From Escherichia phage HC6: a stretch of 47,726 nucleotides of DNA. The notes under the pieces were generated by a model. That model was not told the DNA's origin. It saw only the letters and a program-made list of their open reading frames with translations, and made no database searches. Both the position numbers and the translations under genes were made by a program. The DNA is taken from the sequence record OL362274.1, one strand, 5' to 3'. Below are positions 7,865-19,279 of the stretch, piece by piece. The first letter of the stretch is position 1. Each line of letters opens with the position of its first letter.

Positions 7865-8100
7865 AAAAGCTAAGCAACTGGCTGCTCGGCGCGTGGATTT
7901 CGTTCTGCTCACTGTTGCAGCTGTGGCCTGATGCAATGATGCATGTGTGGGTAATGATGCCTGATGACCTGAAAGCGGCGCTACCGCCAATCGTGGTTAA
8001 AGGTGTAAGCTACTCAATTATGCTTGTCGGCATCCTCGGCAAAATGCACGGCATGAGGAAGGAAAACCGGAGGCTGCGCGATGATGTCGATTCTCGCTAA
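7861..8100 (+). CDS. putative holin
   Basis: 79 aa with two hydrophobic segments and basic C-terminus; ATGA overlap with endolysin stop; function inferred from position. Confidence 0.45.
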   Translation: MKKLSNWLLGAWISFCSLLQLWPDAMMHVWVMMPDDLKAALPPIVVKGVSYSIMLVGILGKMHGMRKENRRLRDDVDSR

Positions 8101-8572
8101 ATACTGGCGACCACTAGTAATTATTATAATTGTTGCTGCTGGCGCGTTGTGGGTAGCAAATAAAGTATCCAGCTATGGCGAGCAGCAATATGCCGCTGGA
8201 TATGCAAAAGCAATCGCAGACCAGAAGGCCGCAGACAAACAAGAGGAGCAACGACGCAATGCAGAACTGCAAAAGATTCAGGCCGACGCACAGCAAAGGA
8301 TTGATGCTGCGCGTAATGATGCTGTTAATGCTGCTGCTAAGTCTGGCAGGTTGCAGCAACAACTCACCAGTATCCGCAAGCAGCTCGTCGGATATTCCAC
8401 CGCTGAGTCCATTGGCAACCCAGCCGCAGATACCGGAGTTTTGCTTGCCGATGTGCTCAGCAAATCTATCGAAAGAAATCGACAACTGGCAGATTATGCT
8501 GACAGGGCAAGAGAAGCGGGATTAGCGTGTGAGGCGCAGTATAATTCGCTGCGCAATAAAAAAGCCCCGTGA
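8081..8572 (+). CDS. i-spanin (Rz-like)
   Basis: 163 aa; N-terminal TM (WRPLVIIIIVAAGALWVA), then Q/A/R-rich coiled-coil-like region; directly after lysin and holin. Confidence 0.7.
   Translation: MMSILAKYWRPLVIIIIVAAGALWVANKVSSYGEQQYAAGYAKAIADQKAADKQEEQRRNAELQKIQADAQQRIDAARNDAVNAAAKSGRLQQQLTSIRKQLVGYSTAESIGNPAADTGVLLADVLSKSIERNRQLADYADRAREAGLACEAQYNSLRNKKAP
8316..8525 (+). CDS. o-spanin (Rz1-like lipoprotein) embedded in i-spanin gene
   Basis: +1 frame inside 8081..8572; MMLLMLLLSLAG-C lipobox; Pro-rich mature part; 69 aa. Confidence 0.65.
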   Translation: MMLLMLLLSLAGCSNNSPVSASSSSDIPPLSPLATQPQIPEFCLPMCSANLSKEIDNWQIMLTGQEKRD

Positions 8573-16787: not shown

Positions 16788-17327
16788 CTACAGACGCATA
16801 GGCATAACAACAATCTTCGCAGTCTCGCCAGATGGCGCACTAAGACAGCAAACTGCGGCATTTGTATTTCCATTCAGTTCAAATTTGACACAACAGAATT
16901 TAGGATTAAACAGCTTCGCCACTTTCTCAATATCAACAAGGTATCCAGCATTGAAGCCTATTTCCTCTGCTGCTTTCGTTTCCCTTGGTATAACGTGATC
17001 AATATCAGGGAATCGACCATCAATCTCTTCGCAGATACCAGCACCAACCATTGTGTCCATATGGCCGAAATGATAAGTAACGATTCCAGATTTTGTATCG
17101 ATGATCGCATGGTTATATTTCTTTTTCGGAGACTTGCTCACCTTTACAATCACACTTTCTGTCAGCTTATTGTCATGGCTGCCGCCAATAAATGCGCGAC
17201 GACCGTCAGTTGAGGCAATACGACCATCAGGCATGAAGCAGATGCCATTCAGGTAATACCGCACATCATTGCGAGCCTGAAATATTAATGCTGATTCAAG
17301 TAATAGTTTGCTTATTTTTAGTTTCAT
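16788..17327 (-). CDS. truncated DNA polymerase III beta sliding clamp (DnaN)-like protein
   Basis: 179 aa; DVRYYLNG, STDGRRA, DGRFPD, EIGFN and C-terminal VVMPMRL match E. coli DnaN domains II-III as I recall them; no domain I. Confidence 0.7.
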   Translation of the reverse strand: MKLKISKLLLESALIFQARNDVRYYLNGICFMPDGRIASTDGRRAFIGGSHDNKLTESVIVKVSKSPKKKYNHAIIDTKSGIVTYHFGHMDTMVGAGICEEIDGRFPDIDHVIPRETKAAEEIGFNAGYLVDIEKVAKLFNPKFCCVKFELNGNTNAAVCCLSAPSGETAKIVVMPMRL

Positions 17328-17500: not shown

Positions 17501-17673
17501 CACTTCACCTTAATCATGTGTTGTTTTGCAACCTTCAGGCATTCTTCAAAAATGCCGCCATTCTTAGCGCTCTGATTGCGCTTGTAATACTGAATTGCCA
17601 CATCAATTGCCATCTGGTCGATGTCAGGCAACTTGGTGCGAAGTTGTTTTTCAATGAATTGTTCTGGTGTCAT
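17500..17673 (-). CDS. hypothetical small protein
   Basis: 57 aa (MTPEQFIEKQLRTKLPDIDQ...); TAATG overlap with methyltransferase stop. Confidence 0.4.
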   Translation of the reverse strand: MTPEQFIEKQLRTKLPDIDQMAIDVAIQYYKRNQSAKNGGIFEECLKVAKQHMIKVK

Positions 17674-18473
17674 TAAACGGACCTCATGAATGCTTTAATG
17701 AATTCTTCTGCGACTTGTGGAACTATGGCATTACCATAACCGCGCAATCGTCCCACTCTTGCGGATACCCCATGAGTTGCCTCGCAAAATCCGCCTGGTA
17801 TGACTCTAGTTTCCTTATCTGCTCCATGGTTGGGTTTCCATGAATCCCATAAACATGAAGCCACATCTGGCGATAAAGAGTATCGTTCCTGAATTTCCCG
17901 TCCTTTCTGTAAAATGACTTGCTGAGATTCCCGTAATCCTTCCATCCTCGCGCCGTTGGTGTCGCCCATCCTCGCGCCAAAGATGATTCTTTTCCTTTCC
18001 TGTGGAGAGCCGACGCTGCAAGCTGGCAATACTGACGCCCCGCAGGCGTAGCCTTTGTCTTCCAGGTTAAGGAATACAAAATCGAGCCAGTGCTTCCCAA
18101 TTGCTGCTGCAACCTGCTCTCCAAACAGCAATTCAGGCTTGCACTCTCTGATGAGCCTGAGAAATGCTGGGGCAAGGTGTCGATCGTCGTCAAATCCGAG
18201 AGACTTACCGGCAACGCTAAACGGCTGGCAAGGTGGTGATCCTGTCCAGAGTCGAGTGCTTTCTGGTATTCCTGCCAGCTGGAGTGCAAGGGGCCACCCT
18301 CCGATTCCGGCAAAGAAGTGACACTGTGTAAATCCTTCCAGGTCTGAAGGGGTGACTTCGGTGATTGATCGTTCATCGACATATCCGTAAGGAATTAGTT
18401 TATTGTTAATTAATTCACGCAGCCATGCCGCTGCGCCCTTGTCCCACTCATTGTAATAGTGGACCATCATCAC
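17673..18473 (-). CDS. DNA (cytosine-5)-methyltransferase, compact
   Basis: 266 aa; FFAGIGG (motif I), PPCQPFS (motif IV), GEQV (motif VI), QERKR (motif VIII), GNAIV (motif X); little room for a target-recognition domain. Confidence 0.75.
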   Translation of the reverse strand: MMMVHYYNEWDKGAAAWLRELINNKLIPYGYVDERSITEVTPSDLEGFTQCHFFAGIGGWPLALQLAGIPESTRLWTGSPPCQPFSVAGKSLGFDDDRHLAPAFLRLIRECKPELLFGEQVAAAIGKHWLDFVFLNLEDKGYACGASVLPACSVGSPQERKRIIFGARMGDTNGARMEGLRESQQVILQKGREIQERYSLSPDVASCLWDSWKPNHGADKETRVIPGGFCEATHGVSARVGRLRGYGNAIVPQVAEEFIKAFMRSV

Positions 18474-19279
18474 ATCTTCTCCAGAATTGCCATCACCTCG
18501 TGAATATCAGCAACAGGAATCTTGATAAACTCCTCATTCTCTGCCACTACATGACCAGCAAGAAGAATAACGTGGTCAGCTGGCTTCAGTAACTCAATCA
18601 GTCGGTCTACTGGCTTAATCTTTTTCGACTTAAGCACCTTCGCCGTTACCTTATCCTTGCCTTGCGCCTTCGCTTCTTCGACTGCCTCGTCGATAACTTT
18701 AACCGCATCATCGCCATGTTCGCGAGTTACTGCTACGGCATTTGCATAGCTGATTTGCCCTGCACTGATTCGCGCTTTTACTTCGGCTGGCACATCACCC
18801 AGTGACAGGTGCATCTGCACGTCAGATACTGAACGGCCGACCTTTTTGGCGATTTCCTCATTGGTCCAGCCAAAGCCTTTCAGTCGCGTGTAAGCCTTTG
18901 CGCGCTCAAATGGGTCAAGCTGCTTACCCTGACTGGATGACACCATGAAGGCAATTTTATCGGCCTCATCGCCAGTGAAATCCTTACACTCAATACGAAC
19001 GATTGGTGCGCCGCGCTCAATGGCACGCAATGCGCCTAGATAGCGATGCTGACCATCAAGAATGCGGATTCCCTTCTCATCAGGAATAACTGTTAATGCT
19101 GGTAATGGCTGACCTGATTCCCAGCACTGCGCGAAATACTCCACATGCTGCTCGTCTGCTTCGCGGATGTTGTATCCCGGCTCCAGATAGATTTGCTCCA
19201 CTGGCACGAGATAGGTTTTGTTAACAGCGATTCCGTTGCGCGTTTCTTTGTCTGAATAGATTTTGCTAAGTGTTTTCAT
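18470..19279 (-). CDS. ParB-like nuclease domain protein
   Basis: 269 aa from ATG 19279; ILDGQHRY ParB/sulfiredoxin-type motif plus HTH-like EIAKKVGRSVSDV. Confidence 0.7.
   Translation of the reverse strand: MKTLSKIYSDKETRNGIAVNKTYLVPVEQIYLEPGYNIREADEQHVEYFAQCWESGQPLPALTVIPDEKGIRILDGQHRYLGALRAIERGAPIVRIECKDFTGDEADKIAFMVSSSQGKQLDPFERAKAYTRLKGFGWTNEEIAKKVGRSVSDVQMHLSLGDVPAEVKARISAGQISYANAVAVTREHGDDAVKVIDEAVEEAKAQGKDKVTAKVLKSKKIKPVDRLIELLKPADHVILLAGHVVAENEEFIKIPVADIHEVMAILEKM

What the first reader, a model, noticed from the sequence alone, without database searches (positions are those of the whole stretch)
17673..18473. Unusually compact C5-cytosine methyltransferase
Motifs I (FFAGIGG), IV (PPCQPFS), VI (GEQV), VIII (QERKR) and X (GNAIV) appear in canonical order, but the protein is only 266 aa. 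Fewer than about 70 residues lie between motifs VIII and X, where the target-recognition domain normally sits, and there is a 45-aa N-terminal extension. Specificity may be very short, or may be supplied by a partner such as the adjacent ParB-like protein.
Basis: partly seen in the sequence, partly recalled or inferred. Interest (0 to 1): 0.5.

Follow-up and report, generated by a model that had tools for sequence, protein, structure and literature searches.

The report
Two-frame phage cytosine methylase gene
The "too small" DNA cytosine methylase of this coliphage is only half the story: the same DNA, read one base out of step, holds a second conserved protein-coding frame that probably supplies the missing DNA-recognition part, and thousands of phage methylase genes share this layout.

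Summary
ORF 17673-18470(-) is a 265-aa C5-cytosine methyltransferase chain (Escherichia phage 6947) with motifs I, IV, VI, VIII and X and only 84 residues between VIII and X.

The gene also contains a second ORF, 17723-18382(-), 219 aa, in the +1 frame. It covers 660 of the 798 nt.

In about 150 related genes this +1 ORF is kept open far beyond chance. It is conserved as protein where it overlaps motifs VII-VIII and the segment before motif X. Often it has its own GGAG + ATG start.

Between motifs VIII and X, substitutions fall on the wobble position of the +1 frame, not of the annotated frame (192/71/59 in 12 independent pairs). The real variable region is therefore encoded in the hidden frame. 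The annotated "short TRD" is a passenger linker that is only kept stop-free.

Gene length tracks the number of WxTP modules in the hidden protein. The window gene has one, which is why it looks compact.

Best reading: a two-polypeptide methylase. Alpha is the catalytic core. Beta carries the recognition modules and a motif-IX-like element. M.EcoHK31I is the experimental precedent. ParB is not the partner. Assembly and activity are inferred, not shown.

The parts
17673..18470 (-). alpha ORF (annotated 'putative C-specific methylase', 265 aa; an in-frame GTG lies at 18473). Catalytic chain with motifs I, IV, VI, VIII and X.
   Evidence: phrog_363, E 1e-74; aligns with HhaI 76-171. Its start overlaps the ParB-like stop (ATGTGATG) and its stop overlaps the next start (TAATG).
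17723..18382 (-). beta ORF in the +1 frame of alpha, 219 aa. ATG at 18382 and a second ATG at 18376. It overlaps 660 of alpha's 798 nt.
   Evidence: tblastn hits in 164 phage records; phrog_1008, E 8e-20; 29,427 cluster representatives. The ORF is longer than in all 200 synonymous shuffles. It is the top outlier among the 41 long ORFs of the window.
18324..18470 (-). alpha residues 1-49: family-specific N-terminal segment with motif II-like YYNEWDKGAAAW and motif III-like DERSITEV, placed before motif I.
   Evidence: TIGR00675 aligns residues 5-182 to profile positions 25-175. BLASTP against HhaI shows a 36-residue gap at the canonical II-III position. This is suggestive only: a profile of the segment finds no methylase in the PDB.
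18294..18323 (-). alpha motif I (CHFFAGIGGW)
18216..18242 (-). alpha motif IV (GSPPCQPFS, catalytic Cys81)
18108..18128 (-). alpha motif VI (LFGEQVA; EQV in place of ENV)
17973..18011 (-). alpha motif VIII (GSPQERKRIIFGA). The same DNA encodes the end of the beta hairpin, so this stretch is dual-coded.
   Evidence: Frame-B identity over VII-VIII is 1.84 times what frame A alone would give.
17853..17972 (-). alpha 'passenger' linker (residues 167-206), equal to beta's variable WxTP region. The selected frame here is +1.
   Evidence: Substitution phase in 12 disjoint pairs is 192/71/59 at alpha codon positions 1/2/3, p = 1e-22. Alpha is nevertheless kept stop-free.
17736..17852 (-). alpha pre-X segment (LWDSW...RVGRLRGY), dual-coded with the beta motif-IX-like segment.
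   Evidence: Both frames show about 0.52 identity against about 0.25 expected as a by-product. Frame-A position-3 entropy falls to 0.80-1.07. Substitution phase is 58/19/40.
17715..17735 (-). alpha motif X (GNAIVPQ). The beta stop codon (TAG, 17723-17725) lies inside it.
18152..18382 (-). beta 'passenger' N-terminus (residues 1 to about 77). It is not conserved as protein and is predicted disordered, but is kept stop-free.
   Evidence: In 75 genes there are 8 +1-frame stops against 127.5 expected.
18008..18142 (-). beta conserved helix (ASLNCCLESRLQQQL) and beta-hairpin (GSILYSLTWKTKATPAGRQYCQLAASA).
   Evidence: AF2 pLDDT is 76-88 over the hairpin. G99, T112 and S124 are invariant.
17861..17968 (-). 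beta single WxTP module (WATPTARGWKD...RKDGKFRNDTLYRQMW).
   Evidence: The module count of 1 to 5 scales with the length of the variable region.
17753..17836 (-). beta motif-IX-like end (NPTMEQ...ARQLMGYPQEW).
   Evidence: L203, M204, G205, P207 and W210 are nearly invariant. The profile lands on HhaI MGYP 283-286, but the score is not significant.

Best explanation
The locus encodes two polypeptides from one stretch of DNA, read in two frames on the same strand.

Alpha (frame A, 265 aa) is the catalytic large domain of a C5-cytosine methyltransferase. It holds a motif II/III-like N-terminus, motifs I, IV (Pro-Cys), VI and VIII, then a linker of no selected sequence, then a conserved pre-X segment and motif X.

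Beta (frame +1, 219 aa) starts about 30 codons into alpha at its own ATG. It runs through a disordered stretch that is merely the out-of-frame reading of alpha's motifs I-VI. It then forms a conserved helix and hairpin, one WxTP module and a motif-IX-like LMGYPxxW end.

Inferred steps: alpha and beta assemble into one enzyme, with beta acting as the small (target-recognition) domain that alpha lacks. The enzyme methylates phage DNA against host restriction.

Shown here: both frames are under selection, and each is selected where the other is only a passenger. Not shown: translation of beta in this phage, alpha-beta binding, and activity.
For: 1. Homology of frame B. The frame-B peptide has tblastn hits in 164 phage records, always inside methylase genes and in their +1 frame.

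2. The +1 frame is kept open. In 80 IMG/VR loci found through frame A, the +1 frame is open for 218-376 codons against 30-160 for the +2 frame. Against synonymous shuffles, +1 stops number 316 versus 571 expected, while +2 stops number 1194 versus 1159. Depletion holds in every region, including over motifs I-VI (8 versus 127.5).

3. Protein-level conservation of frame B. It exceeds what frame A alone imposes only where expected: 1.06-1.13 times in the N-terminal part, 1.84 times over VII-VIII and 2.16 times before X. Frame-A position-3 entropy drops there.

4. Substitution phase in 12 disjoint pairs. N-terminal region 92/68/278 (frame-A wobble). Variable region 192/71/59 (frame-B wobble, p = 1e-22). 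X to the end 24/21/47.

5. Frame A is still kept open through the variable region. There are 0 stops against 260 expected, although observing 0 is partly by construction. In loci found through frame B, alpha reaches motif X in 70 of 73.

6. An internal start for frame B. Its ATG sits at a few fixed places. GGAG is written into the Arg-Ser codons 7 nt upstream in 61 of 87 genes that have that ATG, against 3 of 30 without it; the background rate is 0.15 and p = 6e-9.

7. Modularity. The length of the variable region tracks the WxTP module count: 44, 84, 115, 152 and 206 codons for 1 to 5 modules.

8. Precedent. M.EcoHK31I needs alpha (motifs I-VIII and X) plus a beta (motif IX) encoded in another frame inside alpha (PMC2836561; PMC3404938).

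9. The close relatives Bas77-80, ZCEC08 and ST1UNAM keep both ORFs.
Against: There is no expression or activity data.

In the window gene itself, beta's ATGs (18382, 18376) have only a weak Shine-Dalgarno (ACGGAT).

Beta alone folds poorly in AF2 (mean pLDDT 57), and fold search gave nothing.

The beta profile has no PDB or Pfam hit. Its motif-IX resemblance to HhaI is limited to MGYP and is not significant.

The alpha model failed (pLDDT 36), so neither the alpha fold nor the alpha-beta fit could be examined.

Within the window's own subfamily there are few substitutions: 4 variable sites among the closest relatives, and 15/10/8 against L017.

The family tests use related sequences, so the p-values are not exact.
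Confidence: 0.65

Rival explanations
1. Programmed double frameshifting. Ribosomes read alpha through motif VIII, slip +1 into the WxTP and motif-IX-like region, then slip -1 back before motif X. This would make one canonical chain: I-VIII, TRD, IX, X.
For: It would restore the textbook motif order. The variable region is selected in frame B, while the N-terminus and motif X are selected in frame A. One database protein (P0042) is an A-to-B hybrid.
Against: It does not explain several findings. Frame B is kept stop-free over motifs I-VI (8 stops versus 127.5 expected). Frame A is kept stop-free through the variable region. Frame B's conserved hairpin overlaps motif VIII, and frame A's conserved pre-X segment overlaps the motif-IX-like part. 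An ATG covaries with an upstream GGAG. No slippery heptamer was seen by eye at either junction in the window, though this was not searched systematically. P0042 comes from a single contig and its junction lies at a T-run.
Confidence: 0.12
2. Beta is a real overprinted protein with a job unrelated to target recognition, for example a regulator, an anti-defence factor or a DNA-binding accessory. Alpha alone is a minimal methylase of low or relaxed specificity.
For: Beta has no detectable homology to any solved structure or Pfam family. Its motif-IX likeness is not significant. Alpha has its own conserved pre-X element with an R-x-V-x-P...G-x-P pattern.
Against: Beta was found only inside methylase genes, across proteobacterial, cyanobacterial, actinobacterial and Firmicute phages. 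Alpha lacks both a selected TRD and a motif IX. Beta carries a variable number of modules exactly where a TRD belongs. Some beta ORFs are fused in frame to a Dam methylase. The EcoHK31I precedent also argues against it.
Confidence: 0.15
3. This is an ordinary single-chain compact methylase. The +1 ORF is an untranslated by-product of alpha's conserved sequence or of codon bias.
For: Most records, this phage included, annotate only alpha. Conserved P and G runs (CCC, GGG) do read alike in two frames.
Against: The synonymous-shuffle tests, the frame-B wobble in the variable region, the region-specific excess conservation and the SD-ATG covariation all contradict a by-product. The +2 frame behaves as expected by chance.
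Confidence: 0.04
4. The gene is a decaying or frameshifted pseudogene, or the second frame is a sequencing artefact.
For: Two long frames in one gene is what an uncorrected indel looks like.
Against: The same layout occurs in two 100%-identical phage records and in six relatives. It also occurs in about 150 independent metagenomic loci and many GenBank phages, with both frames intact.
Confidence: 0.01

Closest known systems
M.EcoHK31I (YGGCCR), a two-polypeptide C5-methyltransferase
   Same: Beta is encoded entirely in another reading frame inside the alpha gene. [quoted passage not shown] Both are needed for activity, and the N-terminal part of beta is dispensable (PMC2836561; PMC3404938).
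   Different: In M.EcoHK31I the TRD is assigned to alpha and only motif IX to beta. Here the variable region is selected in beta's frame, and beta spans 83% of alpha.
M.AquI (CYCGRG), a split C5-methyltransferase
   Same: The enzyme is assembled from two chains, with the break in the variable region (PMC3404938).
   Different: In M.AquI the small subunit carries motifs IX and X. That its two genes are adjacent and not overprinted is my recollection; the paper read does not say so. Here motif X stays on alpha and the two genes overlap out of frame.
Multispecific Bacillus phage methyltransferases (SPR, phi3T, rho11s) with tandem TRDs (established knowledge, not checked here)
   Same: They are phage C5-methylases whose variable region consists of a variable number of tandem modules.
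   Different: Those are single chains read in one frame. Whether each WxTP module here recognises a separate target is untested.
Overprinted phage genes such as embedded Rz/Rz1 spanins and phiX174 B-in-A or E-in-D (established knowledge)
   Same: A same-strand, out-of-frame ORF lies wholly inside another gene and has its own start. The window itself seems to hold an embedded spanin pair at 8081-8572 / 8175-8525.
   Different: Here the two products appear to be parts of one enzyme, and each frame has a passenger segment where the other frame is the selected one.
[quoted passage not shown]
   Same: It is a phage methylase gene in which one stretch is open in two frames and the functional reading is not the methylase frame. 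One relative of beta (P0319) carries an HNH domain in frame with beta.
   Different: That element is a sporadic mobile insertion. Its authors do not describe a conserved second ORF spanning the methylase gene. Whether ShiLan gp65 belongs to this clade was not tested.

Membership tests
C5-cytosine DNA methyltransferase (Pfam PF00145 / TIGR00675) | Score above the curated threshold | tested here: met
   PF00145 scores 79.6 bits against a cut-off of 22. TIGR00675 scores 64.6, below its cut-off of 100.65.
C5-cytosine DNA methyltransferase (Pfam PF00145 / TIGR00675) | Motif I FxGxG, motif IV Pro-Cys, motif VI ENV, motif VIII QxRxR, motif X GN(A/S)V | tested here: met
   FFAGIGG, PPCQ, GEQV (Q in place of N), PQERKR and GNAIV are present. 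Residues 75-167 align with HhaI 76-171.
C5-cytosine DNA methyltransferase (Pfam PF00145 / TIGR00675) | Motifs II-III between I and IV | tested here: not met
   Only 20 residues lie between GIGG and PPCQ, and BLASTP shows a 36-residue gap against HhaI. II/III-like strings lie upstream of motif I instead, which is suggestive only.
C5-cytosine DNA methyltransferase (Pfam PF00145 / TIGR00675) | TRD and motif IX between VIII and X in the same chain | tested here: not met
   Pfam matches only residues 69-172. The VIII-X stretch of alpha shows no frame-A selection.
M.EcoHK31I-type two-polypeptide methylase | Beta ORF in another frame inside the alpha gene, conserved and with its own start | tested here: met
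M.EcoHK31I-type two-polypeptide methylase | Alpha carries motifs I-VIII and X; beta carries motif IX | tested here: inconclusive
   The alpha motifs are present. Beta ends in a conserved LMG[YF]PxxW, but the match to HhaI motif IX is not significant.
M.EcoHK31I-type two-polypeptide methylase | Both chains are required for methylation | not testable with these tools
   This needs expression of alpha, of beta and of both together.
M.EcoHK31I-type two-polypeptide methylase | Sequence homology to M.EcoHK31I alpha and beta | not tested
PHROG phrog_363 (alpha) and phrog_1008 (beta) | Significant profile match | tested here: met
   phrog_363 E 1e-74 for alpha and phrog_1008 E 8.4e-20 for beta.
Programmed ribosomal frameshift gene | A conserved slippery site at the frame junction, with the non-used frame free to accumulate stops | tested here: not met
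   Both frames are kept open across their passenger segments. Slippery sites were looked for by eye only.

The most novel reading that the evidence does not exclude
A whole clade of short phage and prophage C5-methyltransferases would be obligate alpha/beta enzymes made by reciprocal overprinting. This includes the proteobacterial phrog_363 type and the canonical-order type of mycobacteriophages and Lactobacillus phages. One DNA stretch of 0.6-1 kb is read in two frames. Each frame carries function where the other is a passenger, and target specificity lies in tandem WxTP modules of the hidden chain. Tens of thousands of 'hypothetical proteins' (phrog_1008 and relatives) would then be the missing recognition subunits.
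Probability: 0.55. Interest if true: 0.85.

Novelty: new variant of a known kind. Interest (0 to 1): 0.75.

Why it matters
If the reading is right, four things follow.

1. Annotation. A very large set of phage methylases is mis-annotated as single, unusually small enzymes. Their recognition subunits sit in databases as unnamed proteins: the beta profile alone finds 29,427 clusters.

2. Prediction and cloning. Specificity prediction and heterologous expression of these methylases would fail unless both frames are kept. Codon optimisation of alpha would destroy beta.

3. Overlapping genes. This would be one of the longest and most widespread out-of-frame overlaps in dsDNA phages. It has a clear functional logic, one enzyme in two frames, and would be a clean natural system for studying how two proteins share sequence space.

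4. M.EcoHK31I. A single 1995 curiosity would become the type example of a common design.

The module count in beta also gives a testable handle on how phage methylase specificity evolves.

Tried and rejected
- ParB-like neighbour as partner: rejected, because adjacency is not conserved in the family.
- AF2 of alpha with a 53-sequence alignment failed (pLDDT 35.6).
- AF2 of beta was only partly confident. Foldseek against the PDB gave meaningless hits.
- The beta profile against PDB sequences and Pfam found nothing.
- The N-terminal-segment profile against the PDB found no methylase.
- The beta motif-IX profile against HhaI landed on MGYP, but the score was not significant.
- A BLAST comparison of the variable region across all pairs could not separate frames A and B (695 versus 761 significant pairs). 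The substitution-phase test on close pairs did separate them.
- A search for single-chain relatives that carry beta's modules in frame with motifs I-VIII found none. Rhodobacter, cyanophage, Edwardsiella, Mycobacterium and Lactobacillus phage genes all turned out to be two-frame as well.
- Eight literature searches found no description of this overlap beyond M.EcoHK31I and a bare 'Mte8-like' ORF annotation in the K1 phages.
- An antisense ORF as the cause of the wobble pattern: rejected, because no long ORF lies on the opposite strand over 17760-17975.

Full report
**What the window is.** The window is the complete genome of Escherichia phage 6947 (ON637251.1, rotated by 23 nt). It is a Skatevirus-like siphovirus. 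HC8A is identical over the 2.5-kb region compared, and Bas77-80, ZCEC08 and ST1UNAM are close relatives (PMC11990801).

**The observation.** ORF 17673-18470(-) is annotated 'putative C-specific methylase', 265 aa. Pfam PF00145 matches at 79.6 bits but only over residues 69-172. A family profile aligns residues 75-167 with M.HhaI 76-171. 84 residues separate QERKR from GNAIV, against 137 in HhaI, and 51 residues precede FFAGIGG. The short form is conserved in the close relatives.

**The hidden feature.** One search also lists a 219-aa ORF at 17723-18382 on the same strand, in the +1 frame, covering 660 of the 798 nt. Among the 41 ORFs of at least 150 codons in the window, this gene is the top outlier for the length of an alternative-frame ORF.

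The frame-B peptide gives tblastn hits in 164 phage records (Klebsiella phage SBP 57%, E 1e-42; K1ind1 and K1H 41%; also Vibrio, Xanthomonas, Rhodobacter, a cyanophage and Edwardsiella phages). The hits always lie under a methylase gene. In SBP, K1ind1, Marilyn, ORH_001, RcPeripeteia, Cy-LDV1 and eiAU-183 the match is in the +1 frame of the methylase reading frame. K1ind1 carries both ORFs as annotated features ('C-specific methylase' and 'Mte8-like'). In Xanthomonas FoX4 the annotators picked frame B as the methylase. PHROGs holds the two frames as separate families, phrog_363 and phrog_1008.

**Is frame B selected or a by-product?** I call the annotated frame A and the +1 frame B. Seven tests bear on this.

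1. Open frame. In 80 IMG/VR loci found through frame A (41-71% identity), frame B is open for 218-376 codons, and the +2 frame for 30-160.

2. Synonymous-codon shuffling of frame A. This predicts 571 +1 stops; 316 are seen, and these lie at the gene ends. The +2 frame shows 1194 against 1159 expected. The +1 ORF beats all 200 shuffles in 47 of 81 genes.

3. Depletion by region in 75 genes. Motif I to VI shows 8 stops against 127.5 expected. VI to VIII shows 0 against 60. The remainder shows 9 against 121.

4. Protein-level conservation of frame B relative to what frame A alone imposes. It is 1.06-1.13 times over the N-terminal part, 1.84 times over motifs VII-VIII, 2.16 times over the 38 codons before motif X, and 1.28 times after the beta stop. 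In the pre-X stretch both frames keep about 0.52 identity, against about 0.25 expected as a by-product of the other frame. Frame-A third-position entropy falls from 1.3-1.8 to 0.8-1.1 in exactly these stretches.

5. Phase of substitutions in 12 phylogenetically disjoint close pairs. Counts are differences at frame-A codon positions 1/2/3.

| Region | Pos 1 / 2 / 3 | Reading |
|---|---|---|
| N-terminal | 92 / 68 / 278 | frame A coding |
| Motif VI to VIII | 30 / 14 / 56 | mostly frame A |
| Variable region (after VIII up to the pre-X segment) | 192 / 71 / 59, p = 1e-22 | wobble of frame B |
| Pre-X | 58 / 19 / 40 | dual |
| Motif X to end | 24 / 21 / 47 | frame A coding |

The single pair L056/L066 gives 36/6/3 in the variable region. 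So where the TRD belongs, the protein under selection is the hidden one.

6. Frame A stays open through the variable region. There are 0 stops against 260 expected under frame-B-synonymous shuffling, and only 24 of 126 genes would be stop-free by chance. Because that set was partly defined by frame A, I checked loci found through frame B. There, alpha reaches motif X in 70 of 73.

7. A start site for frame B. Its first ATG sits at a few fixed places relative to alpha's conserved VDERSI.DV. One place is the GAT-GAA of Asp-Glu. Another is the GAT-GTN of Asp-Val, seven codons on. When the second ATG is present, the Arg-Ser codons 7 nt upstream are AGG-AGY or CGG-AGY, which spell GGAG, in 61 of 87 distinct contexts. 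Without that ATG the figure is 3 of 30. The background expectation is 0.15, and Fisher p = 6e-9. This is the signature of a ribosome-binding site written into alpha's codons.

**Anatomy that follows.** Each ORF has a functional part and a passenger part.

- Alpha: an N-terminal segment, motifs I, IV, VI and VIII, then a G/A/R/S/D/E-rich linker with no selected sequence, then a conserved pre-X element and motif X.
- Beta: about 77 residues that are the out-of-frame reading of alpha's motifs I-VI. They are S/A/L-rich, not conserved and predicted disordered. Next come a helix and a confidently predicted hairpin (YSLTWK..TPAGRQYCQLAAS). Last come WxTP modules and a conserved LMG[YF]PxxW end.

The length of the variable region scales with the number of WxTP modules: medians of 44, 84, 115, 152 and 206 codons for 1 to 5 modules. 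The window gene is in the one-module class, along with 21 of 130 genes. This is the plain reason it looks 'unusually compact'.

**Mechanism.** The best-supported reading is a two-polypeptide methylase. Alpha is the catalytic large domain. Beta is the small domain, holding the recognition modules and a motif-IX-like element. The experimental precedent is M.EcoHK31I. Its beta chain (motif IX) is encoded in another frame inside alpha (motifs I-VIII, X). Both chains are required, and internal Met codons in beta's frame can act as start sites (PMC2836561; PMC3404938).

A double-frameshift model (A to B to A) would give the textbook motif order. It fails to explain why both passenger segments are kept open. 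It also fails to explain why conserved parts of each frame overlap conserved parts of the other, and why an ATG covaries with a GGAG. A likely origin, by inference, is a compensated pair of frameshifts in a single-chain ancestor, followed by capture of an upstream start.

**What is not shown.** There are no expression, binding or activity data. In the window gene the beta ATGs have only a weak Shine-Dalgarno. The beta profile has no PDB or Pfam match. Its resemblance to HhaI motif IX is confined to MGYP and is not significant. The alpha structure prediction failed. Calling beta 'the TRD' therefore rests on position, modularity, selection pattern and precedent.

**The N-terminal 'extension'.** Alpha has only 20 residues between motif I and Pro-Cys (55 in HhaI), and BLASTP shows a 36-residue gap where HhaI has motifs II-III. 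The family-specific N-terminus reads YYNEWDKGAAAW...DERSITEV. HhaI, as I recall it, reads YSNEWDKYAQEV...GDITQV. TIGR00675 aligns residues 5-182 to profile positions 25-175. This suggests that motifs II-III are permuted to lie in front of motif I. The evidence is weak, because a profile of the segment finds no methylase in the PDB, and no structure was obtained.

**Breadth.** The beta profile finds 29,427 cluster representatives at E of 1e-3 or better and 8,374 at 1e-30 or better. Alpha has more than 8,000 90%-identity clusters at E of 1e-10 or better, which is the tool's candidate cap. Short methylases with the canonical motif order carry a beta-like +1 ORF too. Examples are Mycobacterium phage Royals2015 gp75 and its relatives, and Lactobacillus phage Lc-Nu ORF40. 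Their +1 ORF ends in NPxWxEWLMGFPxxWT. It runs 175-320 codons, and in 17 of 19 genes at most 4 of 200 shuffles reach that length. The design is therefore wider than this phage's family.

**Novelty.** The kind (a beta chain overprinted inside alpha) has been known since M.EcoHK31I. I found no paper describing it for this phage clade. Nor did I find one describing the reciprocal-passenger layout or the variable region residing in beta. The library is incomplete and REBASE could not be consulted, so prior description cannot be excluded.

**Verdict.** This is a new variant of a known kind. I put dual coding at about 0.9 and the full alpha/beta enzyme model at about 0.65.

Noticed in passing
window 18324-18470 (-), alpha residues 1-49: The N-terminal 'extension' reads like motifs II and III (YYNEWDK..A, RSITEV) placed before motif I, while the canonical II-III position is deleted. 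This may be a strand permutation of the AdoMet-binding fold across the whole phrog_363 family.
   Followed up: partly
L003 2521-3946 (Klebsiella phage ZX4); L015, L016: In ZX4 and YX3973 the frame-B ORF has no stop before the downstream 'endonuclease VII' gene and runs into it in frame (...WLMGFPAEW...CSECAEEKPISEF...). This could be a beta-EndoVII fusion or simply a shared frame.
   Followed up: no
P0241, P0289, P0319 (one search hits): Some beta ORFs continue in frame into a Dam adenine methylase (PF05869) or a DUF2800/PD-(D/E)XK nuclease. One has an HNH endonuclease inserted in frame B between the passenger and the conserved domain. This recalls the out-of-frame 'ShiLan' HNH of mycobacteriophage methylases (PMC11855218).
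   Followed up: partly
L177 700-1413 (Mycobacterium phage Royals2015 gp75); L178 727-1512 (Lactobacillus phage Lc-Nu ORF40); L179-L203: Short C5-methylases with the normal motif order (I, II, III, IV...) also keep a long +1 ORF. It carries SGxMRNG, W/LxTPxAxD and EWLMGFPxxWT motifs.
   Followed up: partly
P0042 (single Logan contig): A 289-aa protein that follows frame A up to ...DDERHLAPAF and then frame B (SGSSESASL...). The junction lies at a T-run, so it is probably an indel. It would be worth checking as a possible frameshift product.
   Followed up: no
window 8081-8572 (+) and 8175-8525 (+): This is the second-strongest two-frame ORF pair in the window. A 163-aa protein with an N-terminal membrane helix and a coiled-coil-like body contains a +1 ORF with a lipobox (LLLSLAGCSNN). 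It looks like an embedded Rz/Rz1 spanin pair.
   Followed up: no
window 16788-17327 (-): The 179-aa ORF three genes downstream of the methylase (two small ORFs lie between) is annotated 'DNA polymerase III beta subunit' in some records and 'RusA-like Holliday junction resolvase' in others. Pfam gives only a weak DNA_pol3_beta_3 hit (E 0.015).
   Followed up: no
window 18467-18476 and 17671-17675 (-): The methylase is tightly coupled to its neighbours. The ParB-like stop overlaps the alpha start (ATGTGATG), and the alpha stop overlaps the next start (TAATG). Many related Salmonella phages keep the flanking genes but lack the methylase, so it behaves as an accessory gene.
   Followed up: partly
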